Assembly: GCA_964016885.1 (NCBI GenBank)
Contig: OZ024757.1
Span: forward strand, 30,132,001-30,196,000
Source of the DNA: Eledone cirrhosa
Lineage: Eukaryota
Direction: 5' to 3'
DNA: 64,000 nucleotides
This document shows positions 9,862 to 15,800 of this stretch, piece after piece (within the stretch, counting starts at the first letter, position 1; every line of letters starts with the position of its first letter). The notes beneath the pieces are model-generated. The model saw nothing but the letters and a program-made list of their open reading frames with translations. It was not told the DNA's origin and ran no database searches. The translations under genes were made by a program, and so were the position numbers.

Positions 9862-12800
9862 TCATCGATGGCGGGTCCAATCAGTAGCTAACAAAGCGAC
9901 AATAAGAAGCTGTATGTAAGAAAACGATGACTGTACAAACTCCTGTCCGCTGATATTACAGCCATCTTCGTGGCAGCAGCTAGTACAAACCCATTTACTT
10001 TTGGTTTTATCACAGGGAATATCTTTATTCTCCTGCTTCTGGATGTGACAGGAAGCGTTCACAGAACATGTTTTTATGATGGACAGCTTCTCACTGACAT
10101 CTGCAAAAAAAAAAGAAAAAAATAGAAATGATAATAATAATGATAATAATAATAATTGTTTCTACTTTTGGCACAAGGCCAGCAATTCCCAGTGTATTAC
10201 TAGTACTTTATTTTATCGACCCCGTAAGGATGAAAGGCAAAGTTAACCTCGGCGGGATTTGAATTCCAGATAATAATAATAATAATAATTGTTTCTACTT
10301 TAGGCACAAGGCCAGCAATTACCCAGTGCATTAATAATAATAATAATAATAATAATAATAATAATAATAATAATAATAATAATAATAATGCTTTCTTTAT
10401 TAACCACAAGGGTTGATACAGGACGGAACAAATGGGCATTTCTGCGTGTAAAAAAAACAGAGAATGTAACAAAAAAAGAAACAATGAAAGATTCCCAATA
10501 GGGGGGGGGGGAGATTCCGAGGGGCGCTCGTGGAGAAAGTCCACAAAAAAGCCACGGTTACCCTGACCGTTAGGGCAAGTACCCTCTTCCAGTTTTCCTC
10601 CTACGATGCTACAGGCACACGCCATTCACACGGGCCATTCTTTCCTCTCTCACCCACCTTTCAGCATAGAAATAATAATAATAATAATAATAATAATAAT
10701 AATAATAATAATAATAATAATAATAATAAAGCCAGAGTCGGTGATAGAAAACGATCAGGTGAAGGTGCTGTGGGATTTTAGGATACAGACGGACAAGAAA
10801 CTGGAACACAATAGACCTGACCTGGTGGTTTTGGACAACGAAAAAAGATTGTGCCTGATTGTGGATGTGGCCTGCCCATTCGACACGAGAGTGCAAGAGA
10901 AGGAGAGGGAGAAAATTAACCGATACCAGGACTTAAAGTGGGAGGTAAAAAGGATCTGGAACTGCCATGAAGTCAAAGTGGTCCCGATTGTCATCGGCGC
11001 ACTAGGTACTATCTCAAACAGTTTCCAGGGATGGTTAAAGAAAATTCGCCCCGCCACGCTTTTTGGAACGCTTCAAAAGGCATGCTTGCTGGGAACAGCA
11101 AGAACCCTCCGATACGCCCTGAATATCTGAGGCTGCAGGTAGTGGCTTGATATTCATTTCAACAGACTTTCCAGTTAACTAACATCAATGACTGAGACTC
11201 AAAGAACAATAATAATAATAATAATAATAATTTCTAGTTTAGGCATATATATATATCTGTGTGTATATATCTGTGTGTGTATATATATATATGTATATAT
11301 ATATGTATATATATATATGTATATACGTGTATATATATGTGTGTGTGTATATATATATATATATGTGTGTGTGTGTATATATATATATATATGTATATAT
11401 ATTTATATGTGTGTATATGTATATATATATATATATATATATATATATATATGTGTGTGTGTGTGTGTGTGTGTGTGTGTGTGTGTGTGTATATATATAT
11501 ATATATATATATATAAATATATATATATATGTATATATACATATATAGATGCACACACACACACACATACACACACTGCACACGCACTACACACACACAC
11601 TACACACACACACTCACAGACAAGACACAAAGACACACACTGAGGAAGTGAAAGTGAAAGTAGAGGGGAGGTGTGAGTTGAGAGAGGACATGAGTGAACT
11701 AAAGAAGAACAAAAAACGCTGCTTGAAATATGCTATTGCAAGGAAACTGCAGGTGATAGTCAATCGCTATGAAATTGTTGAAAGTTATTGAAGATAACAG
11801 CTGATCTTGTTTGTAATCAGTGTGCAATATTGTATTGTCAACAATAAAAAAGGCGACATATTGTTTTGTGGTGTGAAGAAGCACGGGTGCCCTCAGGTGT
11901 AGGTTGCGTGTTGCTTTCTCTGCGAACTGTGTCCCCCATCCCCACCCGCCCACCTTTTGTTGCGCTGCATTATTGAGCTTTAAGCCGCCAAGCTATCGAC
12001 ACGTGATGTTTTTATGTATATGTAATGTAGATCTGTAGATATGTAGTGGCGAATTTTTTATTATTGTAATATGTGTATTGACATGTGTGCGTGTGTGTGT
12101 GTGTATGCACGAACGGGGGATAATTTTCCTTCATCAGTTGTCTGCTGGGGGTTATGGATATTTACAAATAAATAAATAAATAAATATATATATATGTGTG
12201 TGTGAGAAAAACCACAGACCCTCCATCTCAACTCACCTTTTGAAAAGCAGAAGAACTGCGAAACCGGTAAAGGAACCAAATAAATATATATATTTTTTTT
12301 AAAAATAAGACTCCAGTTGCATTTTCGATTTCATCTCTTTTTCTTTATACTTTCACTCGTGTAGGACACCTCGGTTATTTTTCATTTTGTAAGAAAAACC
12401 TCACTTTCTAATATATATATATATATAAATATATAAATACAATGATATTAATAAATGGAAACTATATTTATAAAACCATATTTATTTTATTATATATATT
12501 TCAAGGGTACCAAAATTTTGGTACGCTCTCATCAGATAAAATACAACATTTGTTTTATAAATGGTGACATAAATATAGTTTCCAGTTATTAATATCATTG
12601 ATATTATACCCCAAAAAACATGTAGAGTGCTTCGAGTCTGTTATAAATAAATTTGTTGAATAACCAACAAATTAAATATCTCTTTGCTAATATATAAATA
12701 CATGTCCCCTCAATCTATTTTATTTCTCATTCTTTCTTCTGGTGAAGGACTAGCGTCCGAAACGTTAAGACCCTCTTCCTGCTATATCAAGCGTTAACCT

Positions 12801-15800
12801 AATATATACCTTCCATATACTGTACCGATTGTGTTGTTATTTCTATTTACCTTGTACATATATATATATATATATATATATATATATATATATATATATA
12901 TATATATATATATATGTGTGTGTGTGTGTGTGTGTGTGTGTGTGTACAAGGGAAACAGAAATATATATATATATATGCAAAGTTTTATTTAAATTGTTGG
13001 GTTACAACGAGTAAATATTTATAACTGATATAAAAGCACTCAACAAGTATTTGGAGTATATTTACGATATTAAATAAATGGAAACTATATTTATAAAACC
13101 ATATTTATTTCATTATATATATTTCAGGGATATCATATTAAAAATATGGTATGCCTTCTTCAGACAAAATACAATATAAACAGTCTTATAAATAGATAGA
13201 TTTGACATACCTTTCAACTTCAACTTCCATTTAAAAAGTTGATTTGGTAGTCACTACCAAATCAACTTTTTAAATGGAAGTTGAAGTTGAAAGGTATGTC
13301 AAATCTATCTATTTATAAGACTGTTTATATTGTATTTTGTCTGAAGAAGGCATACCATATTTTTAATATGATATCCCTGAAATATATATAATGAAATAAA
13401 TATGGTTTTATAAATATAGTTTCCATTTATTTAATATCGTATATATATATATATATATGTAAAAGGGAAACAGAAATAACAACACAATCAGTACAGTTAT
13501 ATGGAAGGGATATATTAGGTTAACGCTTGATATAGCAGGCCGTTTCAACAGCTAGATCGGATCTAGCTGTCGAAACGGCCGGAGCTCAGTCGTCGGAGTC
13601 CTGACTCTTTATATATGTATATATACATATATATATATTTGTGGTAAGGTTGCTTGGATGCGCCCATATGCGGTATGCCGGTTGAGCACTCTATGCTCCT
13701 TCGCAGCAGTGTATGATAATATGGAAAACGAAGAATCGGTAATGCATCGGAACACAAATTGATTACGTTTTACAAATGTTTCTCTGGCGAACAGCTCGAG
13801 GTACGATCTGTTTGTGGATCGAACCTCACTCTGGATTCGCAAGTTCCTCAGATACGTCTAGTGCTTTCGAAGCAAATCCTCTTTCTATCGTCTGCCTTCA
13901 TCCTGTTTGCGCTATACTGCGATTGGTTGGTAGTTCGGGACGTCATCTGAGCGTATGGCCATTCAAATTTGCCCACTGACCATTTCCATTCATGCGTGAG
14001 CTGTCACTCACTCTAATCCCGTCGCCAGAAATTACTGCTACGTATATGAGAGGTTTTATGACCACTCCTGCCAGAAGATCCCGTTAAGGGTGAAAGCAGC
14101 GATTCTTTGCTTAAACTTTAATCTGTTATTTTAATAAATATATATATATATATATATATATATATATATATATATATATATATATATATATATATATTAA
14201 GACAGGGGGAAGAAAAAATGGCTTCACTTGTGCTTTCAACAAATTTATTTTCTTCACAAAATCCAAAAAGAATTTTTCTTAAAAAAAAAAATTATTTTAT
14301 AAATTAAGTTGTTGGTAACAACTTAATTTATAAAATTTAGGATTTTGTGAAGAAAATAAATTTGTTGAAAGCACAAGTGAAGCCATTTTTTCTTCCCCCC
14401 TGTCTTAATATACCTAACTGTACCAAGGATTACACACATTTTCCAATATATATATATATATATATATATATATATATATATATATATATATATATATATA
14501 TATATATATATACATATAAGATGTTTTGGAACTATTGGTCTCGACATCGCATTTGTACACGATGTTATTAGTTAGGCAGTCTGTGTACAGCGGGCAGATG
14601 TTCGAGTTGCATAATTTATTTGACCACATTGGGTGTTACGTGTTTATATTATAGATAGGTTTCAGTTAGTTATATTCCTCGCGAGGTTGGGTGTTGTAGA
14701 ATACAATAGCCTTATGATATTTCTATTATGGGTAAGTTAGTATTTGTGTCGTGTAGAAAAGTGTTTCTTAAGTAATATAACTATTTTCTACATTTGTCAC
14801 AAGGCCAGCAATTTGAATGGAAGGGGGAAATTCAAAGCTAACCTCGTCAAGATTTGAAGTCAGGGCGTAAAGGGCCGTAACTATATGCCGATACTGCCGA
14901 TTTACCACCCTCTTAAATAGTATGATAAAACATCTAGCTATTAGGTGGAAGCTGCTTGGTTAAAGGTGGGTTGTATCAGCAAATTTGTTTGCATCTATTA
15001 TGTTTAAGAGTTCTGGCTAGAGGTAGAATAGATTTGAATTTTTTTTTTTTCGTTAAAACCACTTCTAGCGAGGGCTTCATTGTAGTAGTGGGCTGATTCC
15101 CTAAATATGTCCCCGTTGGTGTAAATATCTCCTAAGGGAGATGTTTCTAATAAGGTTTATGTGATATAATTAGGGTGGTTGGCGTGTATGTTAGTGTATG
15201 TATTTTAGGGACTCTTTCGGGTTGTGGAAGGGACCTGTTGGTCACCTGCCCGTTGGCTTTGTCCATAAAATCTATCAGGCTTAATTATGATTTGTAATTT
15301 AGGCACAAGGCGATCGATTTTAGGAATTCGTTCGGTTTGTGGAAGGAATAATAGAGAGAGAACTACCTGTAGGTCGCCTGCCTGTTGGTTTTGTCCATAA
15401 AATCTATCAGGCTTAATTATGATTTGTAATATTTAGGGACAAGGCGATCGATTTGTGGGGAAAGGAAAGTCGAATATATCGACACCGATACTTTACTGAT
15501 AATTTATTTTATCGAGTCGACCCTAGATGAAAGGAAAAGTTGAGCTCGACGGGATTTGAACGCGGAACGTGAAAAGACGTGATATTGAATGCTGTAAAGT
15601 ATTCTATATCTGACGTTCTAACGACTCTGCCAATTGTATTTTATATCTCTTGTATTCTATATCTGTTGTACAGACTATGTACTCTGTACAACAGATATAA
15701 AATACAAAAGAAATAACGAAACAAAAACGAAAACATCACATACATATACACATACAAAAAAATATTGATATTGAGAATTTTTTTTTTTAACAGAAAAGAT

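What the first reader, a model, noticed from the sequence alone, without database searches (positions are those of the whole stretch)
12485..13396. Type-I hammerhead ribozymes with long stem II and a conserved C-C mismatch at its fourth position
Seen: four distinct motifs (1223-1283 +, 12485-12541 -, 13335-13396 + with its mirror copy, 30208-30269 -) have intact CUGANGA/GAAA cores, a short AU-rich near-palindromic stem III and an AUA cleavage triplet. Their stem II sequences differ (GAAC/CUUC, GAGC/CCUU, AGGC/CCCU, AAGC/CCUU) but all give three pairs, a C-C mismatch, then more pairing. Established: Penelope-like elements and retrozymes carry type-I hammerheads with palindromic stem III that cleave as dimers. 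Inference: this is an AT-rich hammerhead subtype in which the C-C internal loop may make a tertiary contact. The minus-strand copies at 12.5 and 13.1 kb are in sense orientation within the Ly6 intron and could cleave its pre-mRNA.
Basis: partly seen in the sequence, partly recalled or inferred. Interest (0 to 1): 0.72.

Follow-up and report, generated by a model that had tools for sequence, protein, structure and literature searches.

The report
Retrotransposon hammerheads keep a pyrimidine mismatch
These are copies of a hammerhead-shaped RNA motif at the ends of a known kind of jumping gene, with over 100,000 such motifs in this genome; unusually, most lineages keep one unpaired pyrimidine pair at a fixed spot while the pairs around it change, so it is likely a functional shape mark on an RNA predicted to cut itself in pairs.

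Summary
Observation confirmed: five type I hammerhead motifs, all with C-C at stem II position 4 (shuffles 0.03 per window). The 13.1-13.4 kb pair is a truncated, two-armed copy of a young Hydra-clade Penelope-like retrotransposon; full-length copies carry the motif in both pseudo-LTRs. With stem II left free, 62,753 of 70,638 genome matches keep both Cs and 330 close the pair as C-G. Flanking pairs covary across families whose proteins are 47-50% identical. The rule is a pyrimidine mismatch, not strictly C-C: one family has C-U, an older group mostly U-C. The stem III octamer stays self-complementary through compensatory changes, supporting dimer cleavage. Neither cleavage nor a tertiary contact is shown, and element ends do not map to the cut site. 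Ly6 pre-mRNA cleavage is unlikely: the 13.1 kb copy is predicted to be locked in a hairpin with its mirror arm. None of 26 published Hydra hammerheads has this mismatch. The scan noted the feature before in other windows of this genome. New variant of a known kind.

The parts
13333..13398 (+). Type I hammerhead motif, young family F1: core 13341-13347, stem II 13348-13378 with C13351 x C13375, GAAA 13379-13382, predicted cut after 13390; lies in the short inverted arm
   Evidence: 41 of 44 matches 100% identical over 131 nt
13106..13171 (-). Mirror copy of the same hammerhead in the arm that runs to the element's true 3' end; core starts 13163, predicted cut after 13114
12976..13439 (.). Two-armed, 5'-truncated Hydra-clade Penelope-like insertion in (TA)n: minus arm 13251 to about 12976 (about 138 nt past the cut), plus arm 13255-13439 (about 49 nt past the cut); arms identical over about 190 nt
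12948..12963 (+). 16-nt sequence repeated at 13463-13478, flanking the insertion (likely target duplication)
12483..12543 (-). Type I hammerhead motif, GAGC/CCUU subfamily; core starts 12535, predicted cut after 12491; in the inverted arm of a second two-armed insertion (about 12441-12693)
30206..30271 (-). Type I hammerhead motif, AAGC/CCUU subfamily; core starts 30263; inverted arm of a third two-armed insertion
1223..1283 (+). Decayed hammerhead of an older family (GAAC/CUUC, stem III UACGUA), 10 nt shorter in stem II than its relatives; link to an ORF not established
13766..13856 (-). Sixth, decayed hammerhead motif (core 13851, 62-nt stem II, U x C at position 4, GUA triplet) of an older group; sense to the Ly6-like gene
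9862..17092 (-). Host Ly6/uPAR-like gene: exons 17092-16964 and 10100-9862, intron 10101-16963 holding the 12.5-13.9 kb insertions; first exon not found

Best explanation
The motifs are type I hammerheads in the pseudo-LTRs of Hydra-clade Penelope-like retrotransposons, left here by truncated insertions; they are predicted to cut slowly and only as dimers, and the fixed pyrimidine mismatch is likely a selected shape mark where stem I or the element's own protein would dock. Shown: full-length copies have one ORF (reverse transcriptase, then GIY-YIG-type endonuclease) between two pseudo-LTRs, each with the motif, 3,867 nt apart. Shown: the mismatch stays open while neighbouring pairs covary, and the stem III octamer stays self-complementary. 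Inferred: a transcript spanning both pseudo-LTRs brings two motifs together through an 8-bp stem III duplex and would release a unit-length RNA. Inferred: because both element ends lie only about 49 and 138 nt downstream of the cut, yet copies run through an intact junction, the copied template is uncut or re-ligated. Inferred, weakest step: the long stem II moves its terminal loop out of reach of stem I, and the mismatch, at about the height where loop 2 starts in ordinary hammerheads, supplies the contact instead. The window copies are dead stubs with no likely role in Ly6 expression.
For: Element: 742-aa ORF with RWR, DKT, CxCX5C, CxxC, CxH, direct pLTRs each with the motif, matching the Hydra definition. 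Conservation: 62,753 of 70,638 with both Cs; 3,318 lack the 5' C and 330 close the pair as C-G; the first 100 listed of each are scattered over the same families. Clusters from a descriptor blind to position 4: paired in 3 of 19 at position 4, 17-19 of 19 at positions 2, 3, 5, 6, 7. In 14 chosen representatives 5 of 6 flanking stem II pairs and 5 of 5 stem I pairs change on both sides; covariation 0.714 against 0.305 shuffled and at most 0.162 slid. Three ORF-linked families with the mismatch are 47-50% identical and form one clade, 99/97. Dimer: inner four octamer letters self-complementary in 17 of 19 clusters against 10.3 shuffled; dimer fold 12.6-19.9 kcal/mol below two active monomers in 6 of 6 motifs. 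Position 1.6 is a purine in all 13 clusters that have C at position 4 and a U-starting stem III. An Anolis PLE hammerhead cuts only with the element's protein (PMC11167929).
Against: No cleavage is shown. None of the first 100 of 26,637 copies starts at the cut site; about 95 run through the core. The families share ancestry in one genome, so clusters are not independent, and some loci and all rows were picked from lists that required or showed the 5' C. No base in stem I was shown to covary with the mismatch. Some older subfamilies pair position 4. A young Hydra family 40% identical carries a U3-A8 hammerhead without this mismatch, and 0 of 26 published Hydra hammerheads have it, so it is not needed by the clade at large. 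For 2 of 6 motifs the dimer fold is not below two monomer minimum-energy folds. In Anolis, hammerhead mutants did not impair insertion in vitro.
Confidence: 0.55

Rival explanations
1. The mismatch is a brake, not a contact: it leaves only three pairs next to the core, so the ribozyme stays weak, enough uncut template survives, and the reverse transcriptase can read through the long hairpin.
For: Closing the pair in silico stabilises stem II by 4.0-6.7 kcal/mol in 8 of 8 motifs. C-C, C-U and U-C all occur. The AUA triplet was the slowest of four tested in a viroid hammerhead (PMC1636495 abstract). Copies come from uncut or re-ligated RNA.
Against: A brake could sit at any position or use any mismatch, yet the position is fixed and purine mismatches are rare (1 of 19 clusters). 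The three pairs beyond it keep an R-Y, Y-R, R-Y pattern in most families.
Confidence: 0.25
2. The mismatch is an inherited accident with no function, carried along by a successful lineage.
For: All evidence comes from related families in one genome; other Hydra elements do without it.
Against: Every neighbouring stem II pair changed on one or both sides over the same history; where position 4 changed at family level it mostly stayed a pyrimidine mismatch; pair-closing mutants exist but did not amplify.
Confidence: 0.1
3. The motif no longer cuts; it is kept as a folded RNA or DNA signal that positions the element's protein for internal initiation of reverse transcription.
For: No 5' ends at the cut site; both initiation sites lie close downstream; Anolis insertion does not need cleavage.
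Against: The catalytic core, GAAA and an NUH triplet are kept in all clusters, and the dimer palindrome covaries, as expected for catalysis.
Confidence: 0.08
4. The intronic copies have been adopted by the host to cut the Ly6-like pre-mRNA.
For: Three motifs (12535, 13163, 13851) are in sense orientation in the intron; adopted intronic type I hammerheads are known in amniotes (PMC6155905).
Against: 13163 is predicted to be fully paired to its mirror arm; 13851 is decayed; 12535 has stem III pairing probability near 0 as a monomer. At about one motif per 42 kb intronic copies are expected by chance, and the 13.1 kb insertion is very young.
Confidence: 0.02

Closest known systems
Hydra-clade Penelope-like elements and their hammerheads (Craig et al. 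2021, PMC8557442; passages, File S1 Hydra sheet and File S2 table read)
   Same: C-terminal endonuclease, DKT, CxCX5C, CxxC and CxH motifs, (TA)n targets, inverted 5' copies, type I hammerhead near the 3' end; an octopus member (Hydra-1_Obim) whose N-terminal protein text resembles this ORF by eye.
   Different: None of the 26 listed Hydra hammerheads has an internal mismatch at stem II position 4 (read by eye; many have C-G there). Their stems II are mostly 3-8 bp with short loops and their stems III 3-4 bp with a 1-3 nt centre. Here stem II spans 20-62 nt and stem III is a fully self-complementary octamer.
Minimal hammerheads of metazoan PLEs (Cervera and de la Pena 2014, PMC4209133; parts 1-2 of 4 read)
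   Same: Type I, in pLTRs, longer than usual helix II, palindromic 15.2-16.2 region, dimer model, many divergent families per genome, opposite-strand pairs 100-700 bp apart, U3-A8 core variant.
   Different: Those typically have an extra unpaired base between positions 9 and 10.1, a conserved G10.1-C11.1 pair and little or no helix III. Here there is no extra base, 10.1-11.1 varies (A-U, G-C, G-U, U-U) and the irregularity is at position 4. A bulge in mid helix II is reported for Drosophila virilis Penelope, but as a single bulged base.
Canonical metazoan type I hammerheads of retrozymes (PMC7229834, passages)
   Same: 2-bp stem III with palindromic tetraloop; dimer cleavage; genomes with about 120,000 motifs (axolotl).
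   Different: Retrozymes are non-coding tandem repeats with a 4-bp helix II and loop 1-loop 2 contacts; these sit in coding retrotransposons and lack a short conserved loop 2.
Anolis Poseidon (PAc) hammerhead (PMC11167929, passages)
   Same: PLE hammerhead upstream of two internal reverse-transcription start sites that give a long and a short arm; no ends at the cut site.
   Different: Different clade; its tail is the usual short one against about 89 nt here; no position-4 mismatch in the passages read.

Membership tests
Type I hammerhead ribozyme | CUGANGA and GAAA core with NUH cleavage triplet | tested here: met
Type I hammerhead ribozyme | Three helices, helix I open, supported by covariation | tested here: met
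   5 of 5 stem I pairs and 5 of 6 flanking stem II pairs change on both sides
Type I hammerhead ribozyme | Self-cleavage at the NUH site | not testable with these tools
   needs in vitro assay or RNA-end reads; no genomic footprint at the site
Type I hammerhead ribozyme | Match to an Rfam hammerhead model | tested here: not met
   no hammerhead family at E<=10 in two stretches; none among the 150 of 251 rows shown for the whole window
Canonical (loop 1-loop 2) type I hammerhead | 4-bp helix II with short loop 2 contacting a helix I bulge | tested here: not met
   stem II 20-62 nt with variable terminal loop
Dimer-cleaving hammerheads | Unstable, self-complementary stem III/loop 3 | tested here: met
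Minimal PLE hammerhead (min-HHR) | Extra unpaired base between 9 and 10.1 and conserved G10.1-C11.1 | tested here: not met
Hydra-clade Penelope-like element | Single ORF, reverse transcriptase then C-terminal endonuclease | tested here: met
   Pfam gave no family for the ORF at E<=0.1, so domains rest on motifs and homologues
Hydra-clade Penelope-like element | RWK motif, DKG changed to DKT | tested here: met
   RWK in two of five ORFs, RWR or RWT in three; DKT in 5 of 5
Hydra-clade Penelope-like element | CxCX5C linker, C-terminal CxxC and CxH | tested here: met
   5 of 5 ORFs
Hydra-clade Penelope-like element | pLTRs, inverted 5' copies, (TA)n insertion | tested here: met
Hydra-clade Penelope-like element | Placement inside the published Hydra clade on a tree | not tested
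   published sequences were only compared by eye; my trees used database homologues
Naiad elements | N-terminal endonuclease, no canonical hammerhead | tested here: not met
   endonuclease is C-terminal and a hammerhead is present
Non-LTR retrozyme | Non-coding tandem repeats of a few hundred bases with one hammerhead each | tested here: not met
   motifs lie in pLTRs of coding elements or their truncated stubs

The most novel reading that the evidence does not exclude
A distinct hammerhead architecture of cephalopod-type Hydra retrotransposons in which a 1x1 pyrimidine mismatch in a long stem II replaces the loop-loop contact and acts as the docking point that lets the element's own protein switch on an obligate dimer ribozyme, coupling RNA cutting or circularisation to the transposition cycle.
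Probability: 0.25. Interest if true: 0.68.

Novelty: new variant of a known kind. Interest (0 to 1): 0.42.

Why it matters
What hammerheads do in Penelope-like elements is still open (PMC8557442, PMC11167929). This genome offers young, intact elements, more than 100,000 motifs and many divergent families that show which positions are constrained, so single-base tests of the mismatch, the dimer palindrome and protein dependence can be designed directly. If the mismatch is a contact point it would be a new way to activate a hammerhead. The host class and the presence of hammerheads in Hydra elements are already known, which caps the surprise.

Tried and rejected
Naiad assignment (my first guess from recalled motifs): rejected, the endonuclease is C-terminal. 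Rfam: no hammerhead match. Viral contigs: no relative of the ORF. Sequencing runs: no RNA holder listed; contigs laid on the stretch gave no ends or joints of use. Cut-site 5' ends: none in 100 listed. Linking the 1228 family to the ORF fragment beside it in L033: rejected, that ORF lineage has a different 3' end. Linking the long-stem TGTC and the UGAUCA families to nearby ORFs (L333, L342): not established, other repeats lie between. The idea that the 784-aa family lacks a hammerhead: rejected once a U3-A8 core was found. A tree test of one origin of the mismatch did not run for want of rows. Literature searches for a conserved C-C or pyrimidine mismatch in hammerhead stem II, or for cephalopod PLE hammerheads, found no description (listings only unless named elsewhere). 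Lunse, Weinberg and Breaker (about 150,000 PLE-linked variants, figure recalled) is not held; I saw only its citation and a review's summary, so it may already include this variant. Supplementary figures of Cervera and de la Pena 2014 were not seen.
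Full report
Observation. A descriptor that asks for the type I core, three pairs at the base of stem II, a minimal stem III and stem I, but says nothing of position 4, finds five motifs in the window, the four named and the mirror copy. All five have C opposite C at stem II position 4. 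Shuffled windows give 0.03 motifs on average and none with C-C. The 1228 copy is decayed. A looser scan adds a sixth, decayed motif at 13851 (-) with U opposite C.

What carries them. The 13.3 kb motif has many identical copies (41 of 44 matches at 100%, 40 of 548 candidates scored). Two of 30 such loci showed an ORF with reverse transcriptase and endonuclease motifs. Full-length copies have a 742-aa ORF between two direct pseudo-LTRs of about 840 nt, each with the motif, 3,867 nt apart, ending in (TA)n. The protein has RWR, DKT, CxCX5C, CxxC and CxH, the marks of the Hydra clade in Craig et al. (PMC8557442). The best named homologue is from Argonauta hians at 39% identity, which fits a cephalopod-type host. 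The window's 12976-13439 segment is a 5'-truncated copy with an inverted arm; a 16-nt duplication flanks it. The 12.5 and 30.2 kb motifs sit in the inverted arms of similar stubs.

Is the mismatch conserved? The genome has 2,996 Mb. A pattern fixing only the core and stem III gives 70,638 matches against 51 for the reversed control. 62,753 of them (88.8%) have both Cs, 3,318 lack the 5' C, and 330 (0.5%) have C-G. The first 100 exceptions of each kind belong to the same families and look like scattered later mutations. A broader pattern that requires the 5' C gives 121,415 against 581. Copies are not independent, so I clustered 126 distinct motifs from held loci, leaving out the central hits of loci chosen for lacking the C. 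At a 35% cut there are 19 clusters: position 4 is paired in 3, while positions 2, 3, 5, 6 and 7 are paired in 17 to 19. Position 4 is C-C in 11, C-U in 2, U-C in 2, C-A in 1. Part of these loci came from lists that required the 5' C, so this count leans towards it. In 14 hand-picked representatives the flanking pairs change on both sides, with covariation 0.714 against 0.305 for shuffles and at most 0.162 for slid partners. Three families tie the motif to full ORFs: F1 (C-C), a family with an 892-aa ORF (C-C) and one with a UGCGCA stem III (C-U). Their proteins are 47-50% identical and form a clade at 99/97. A further 3,821 matches with CAUDUG stems III include one C-U family and an older group that is mostly U-C or U-U, with some subfamilies paired. 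The conserved thing is therefore a pyrimidine mismatch after three pairs, usually with a 5' C.

Limits of the feature. A young Hydra family with a 716-784-aa frame, 40% identical to F1, has a U3-A8 core, a six-pair stem III and no such mismatch in its best register. None of the 26 Hydra rows in File S2 of Craig et al. has it (read by eye). It marks a sub-lineage, not the clade.

Dimer. The octamer from A15.1 to U16.1 cannot form a stable hairpin (+4.7 kcal/mol) but pairs with itself. Its inner four letters, unpaired in a monomer, stay self-complementary in 17 of 19 clusters against 10.3 when shuffled, through AUAU, AUGU, ACGU, GCGC and GAUC. The dimer fold is 12.6-19.9 kcal/mol below two active monomers in 6 of 6 motifs, but not below two monomer minimum-energy folds in 2 of 6. 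This matches the published dimer model (PMC4209133; PMC3088659).

Does it cut? Not shown. Of the first 100 of 26,637 copies of the flank just downstream of the cut, none begins at the cut and about 95 run through the core. Both element ends lie 49 and about 138 nt downstream of the cut, so the template copied was uncut or re-ligated; the DNA cannot tell which. The Anolis element behaves alike: its hammerhead cuts only with the element's protein, and cutting is not needed for insertion in vitro (PMC11167929).

What the mismatch does. By established knowledge, fast hammerheads dock loop 2, after a 4-bp helix II, on helix I. Here the terminal loop is far out and variable, and the mismatch sits where loop 2 would begin. 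Position 1.6 on the facing strand is a purine in all 13 clusters that have C at position 4 and a U-starting stem III, paired in some and unpaired in others. That is a hint only. The tolerance of C-C, C-U and U-C points to shape rather than base identity. I put the whole mechanism, with docking on stem I or protein, at 0.55, a brake at 0.25 (closure adds 4.0-6.7 kcal/mol), drift at 0.10 and a non-cutting signal at 0.08.

Ly6 claim. The gene exists: two minus-strand exons give a cysteine-rich domain ending CCxxxxCN and a hydrophobic tail, with weak Ly6/CD59 Pfam hits below cut-off. The motifs are in sense in its intron, but in the predicted fold of that stretch the 13163 motif is wholly paired to its mirror arm, and 12535 lacks a partner. 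With one motif per about 42 kb, intronic copies need no special explanation.

Novelty. Hammerheads in Hydra elements and dimer-type stems III are known. I found no description of the fixed mismatch in six searches, but could not read Lunse et al., which lists many PLE variants. Five earlier notes of this scan report the same feature in other windows of this genome; I had reached the reading before opening them and they are not independent support. My data side with the note that calls it a pyrimidine mismatch over those that call it one invariant cytosine. Verdict: real, new variant of a known kind, interest 0.42.

Noticed in passing
L033:1667-5495 (G000:C18, just left of the window): Full-length copy of the same element with dense A-to-G change on the sense strand: 149 of 201 substitutions in 1667-4360 and 69 of 116 in 4664-5184, 5' neighbour preference U>A>C>G; the only such locus in the table. 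Its hammerhead has A-to-G at position 7 and at the cleavage base. Looks like an ADAR-edited RNA copied back into DNA.
   Followed up: partly
L305:4710-4800; window 19416-19542, about 900-1030, 13520-13600: A young Hydra family in tandem arrays carries a U3-A8 core hammerhead with long stem II, six-pair stem III and GUC site; the window holds two-armed stubs of it and of relatives, cut inside stem II.
   Followed up: partly
window 12739-12770 (+): Minimal-type PLE hammerhead with a decayed core (A6 to G against intact copies in L097 and L112), antisense to the Ly6-like gene.
   Followed up: partly
window 14513-15410 (-): Decayed fragments of a Hydra-type ORF, 33-47% identical to the F1 protein.
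   Followed up: no
window about 220-320 and 2279-2370 (-); L129-L131: Tandemly duplicated cysteine-rich exon of another minus-strand gene, about 2.1 kb period; the 1228 motif was duplicated with this unit.
   Followed up: no
L033:1300, L033:6887, L296:54 and 202, L308:6881, L321:6016, L329:3862: Many other hammerhead families occur in the held loci, several with short or fully paired stem II and other palindromic stems III.
   Followed up: no
G000:C1:500099 and C1:2569394: Two copies share a deletion that removes GAAA and part of stems II and III; possibly a small core-less subfamily.
   Followed up: no
window 14204-14401: Another long inverted repeat between (TA)n tracts, probably a two-armed stub of a further element.
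   Followed up: no
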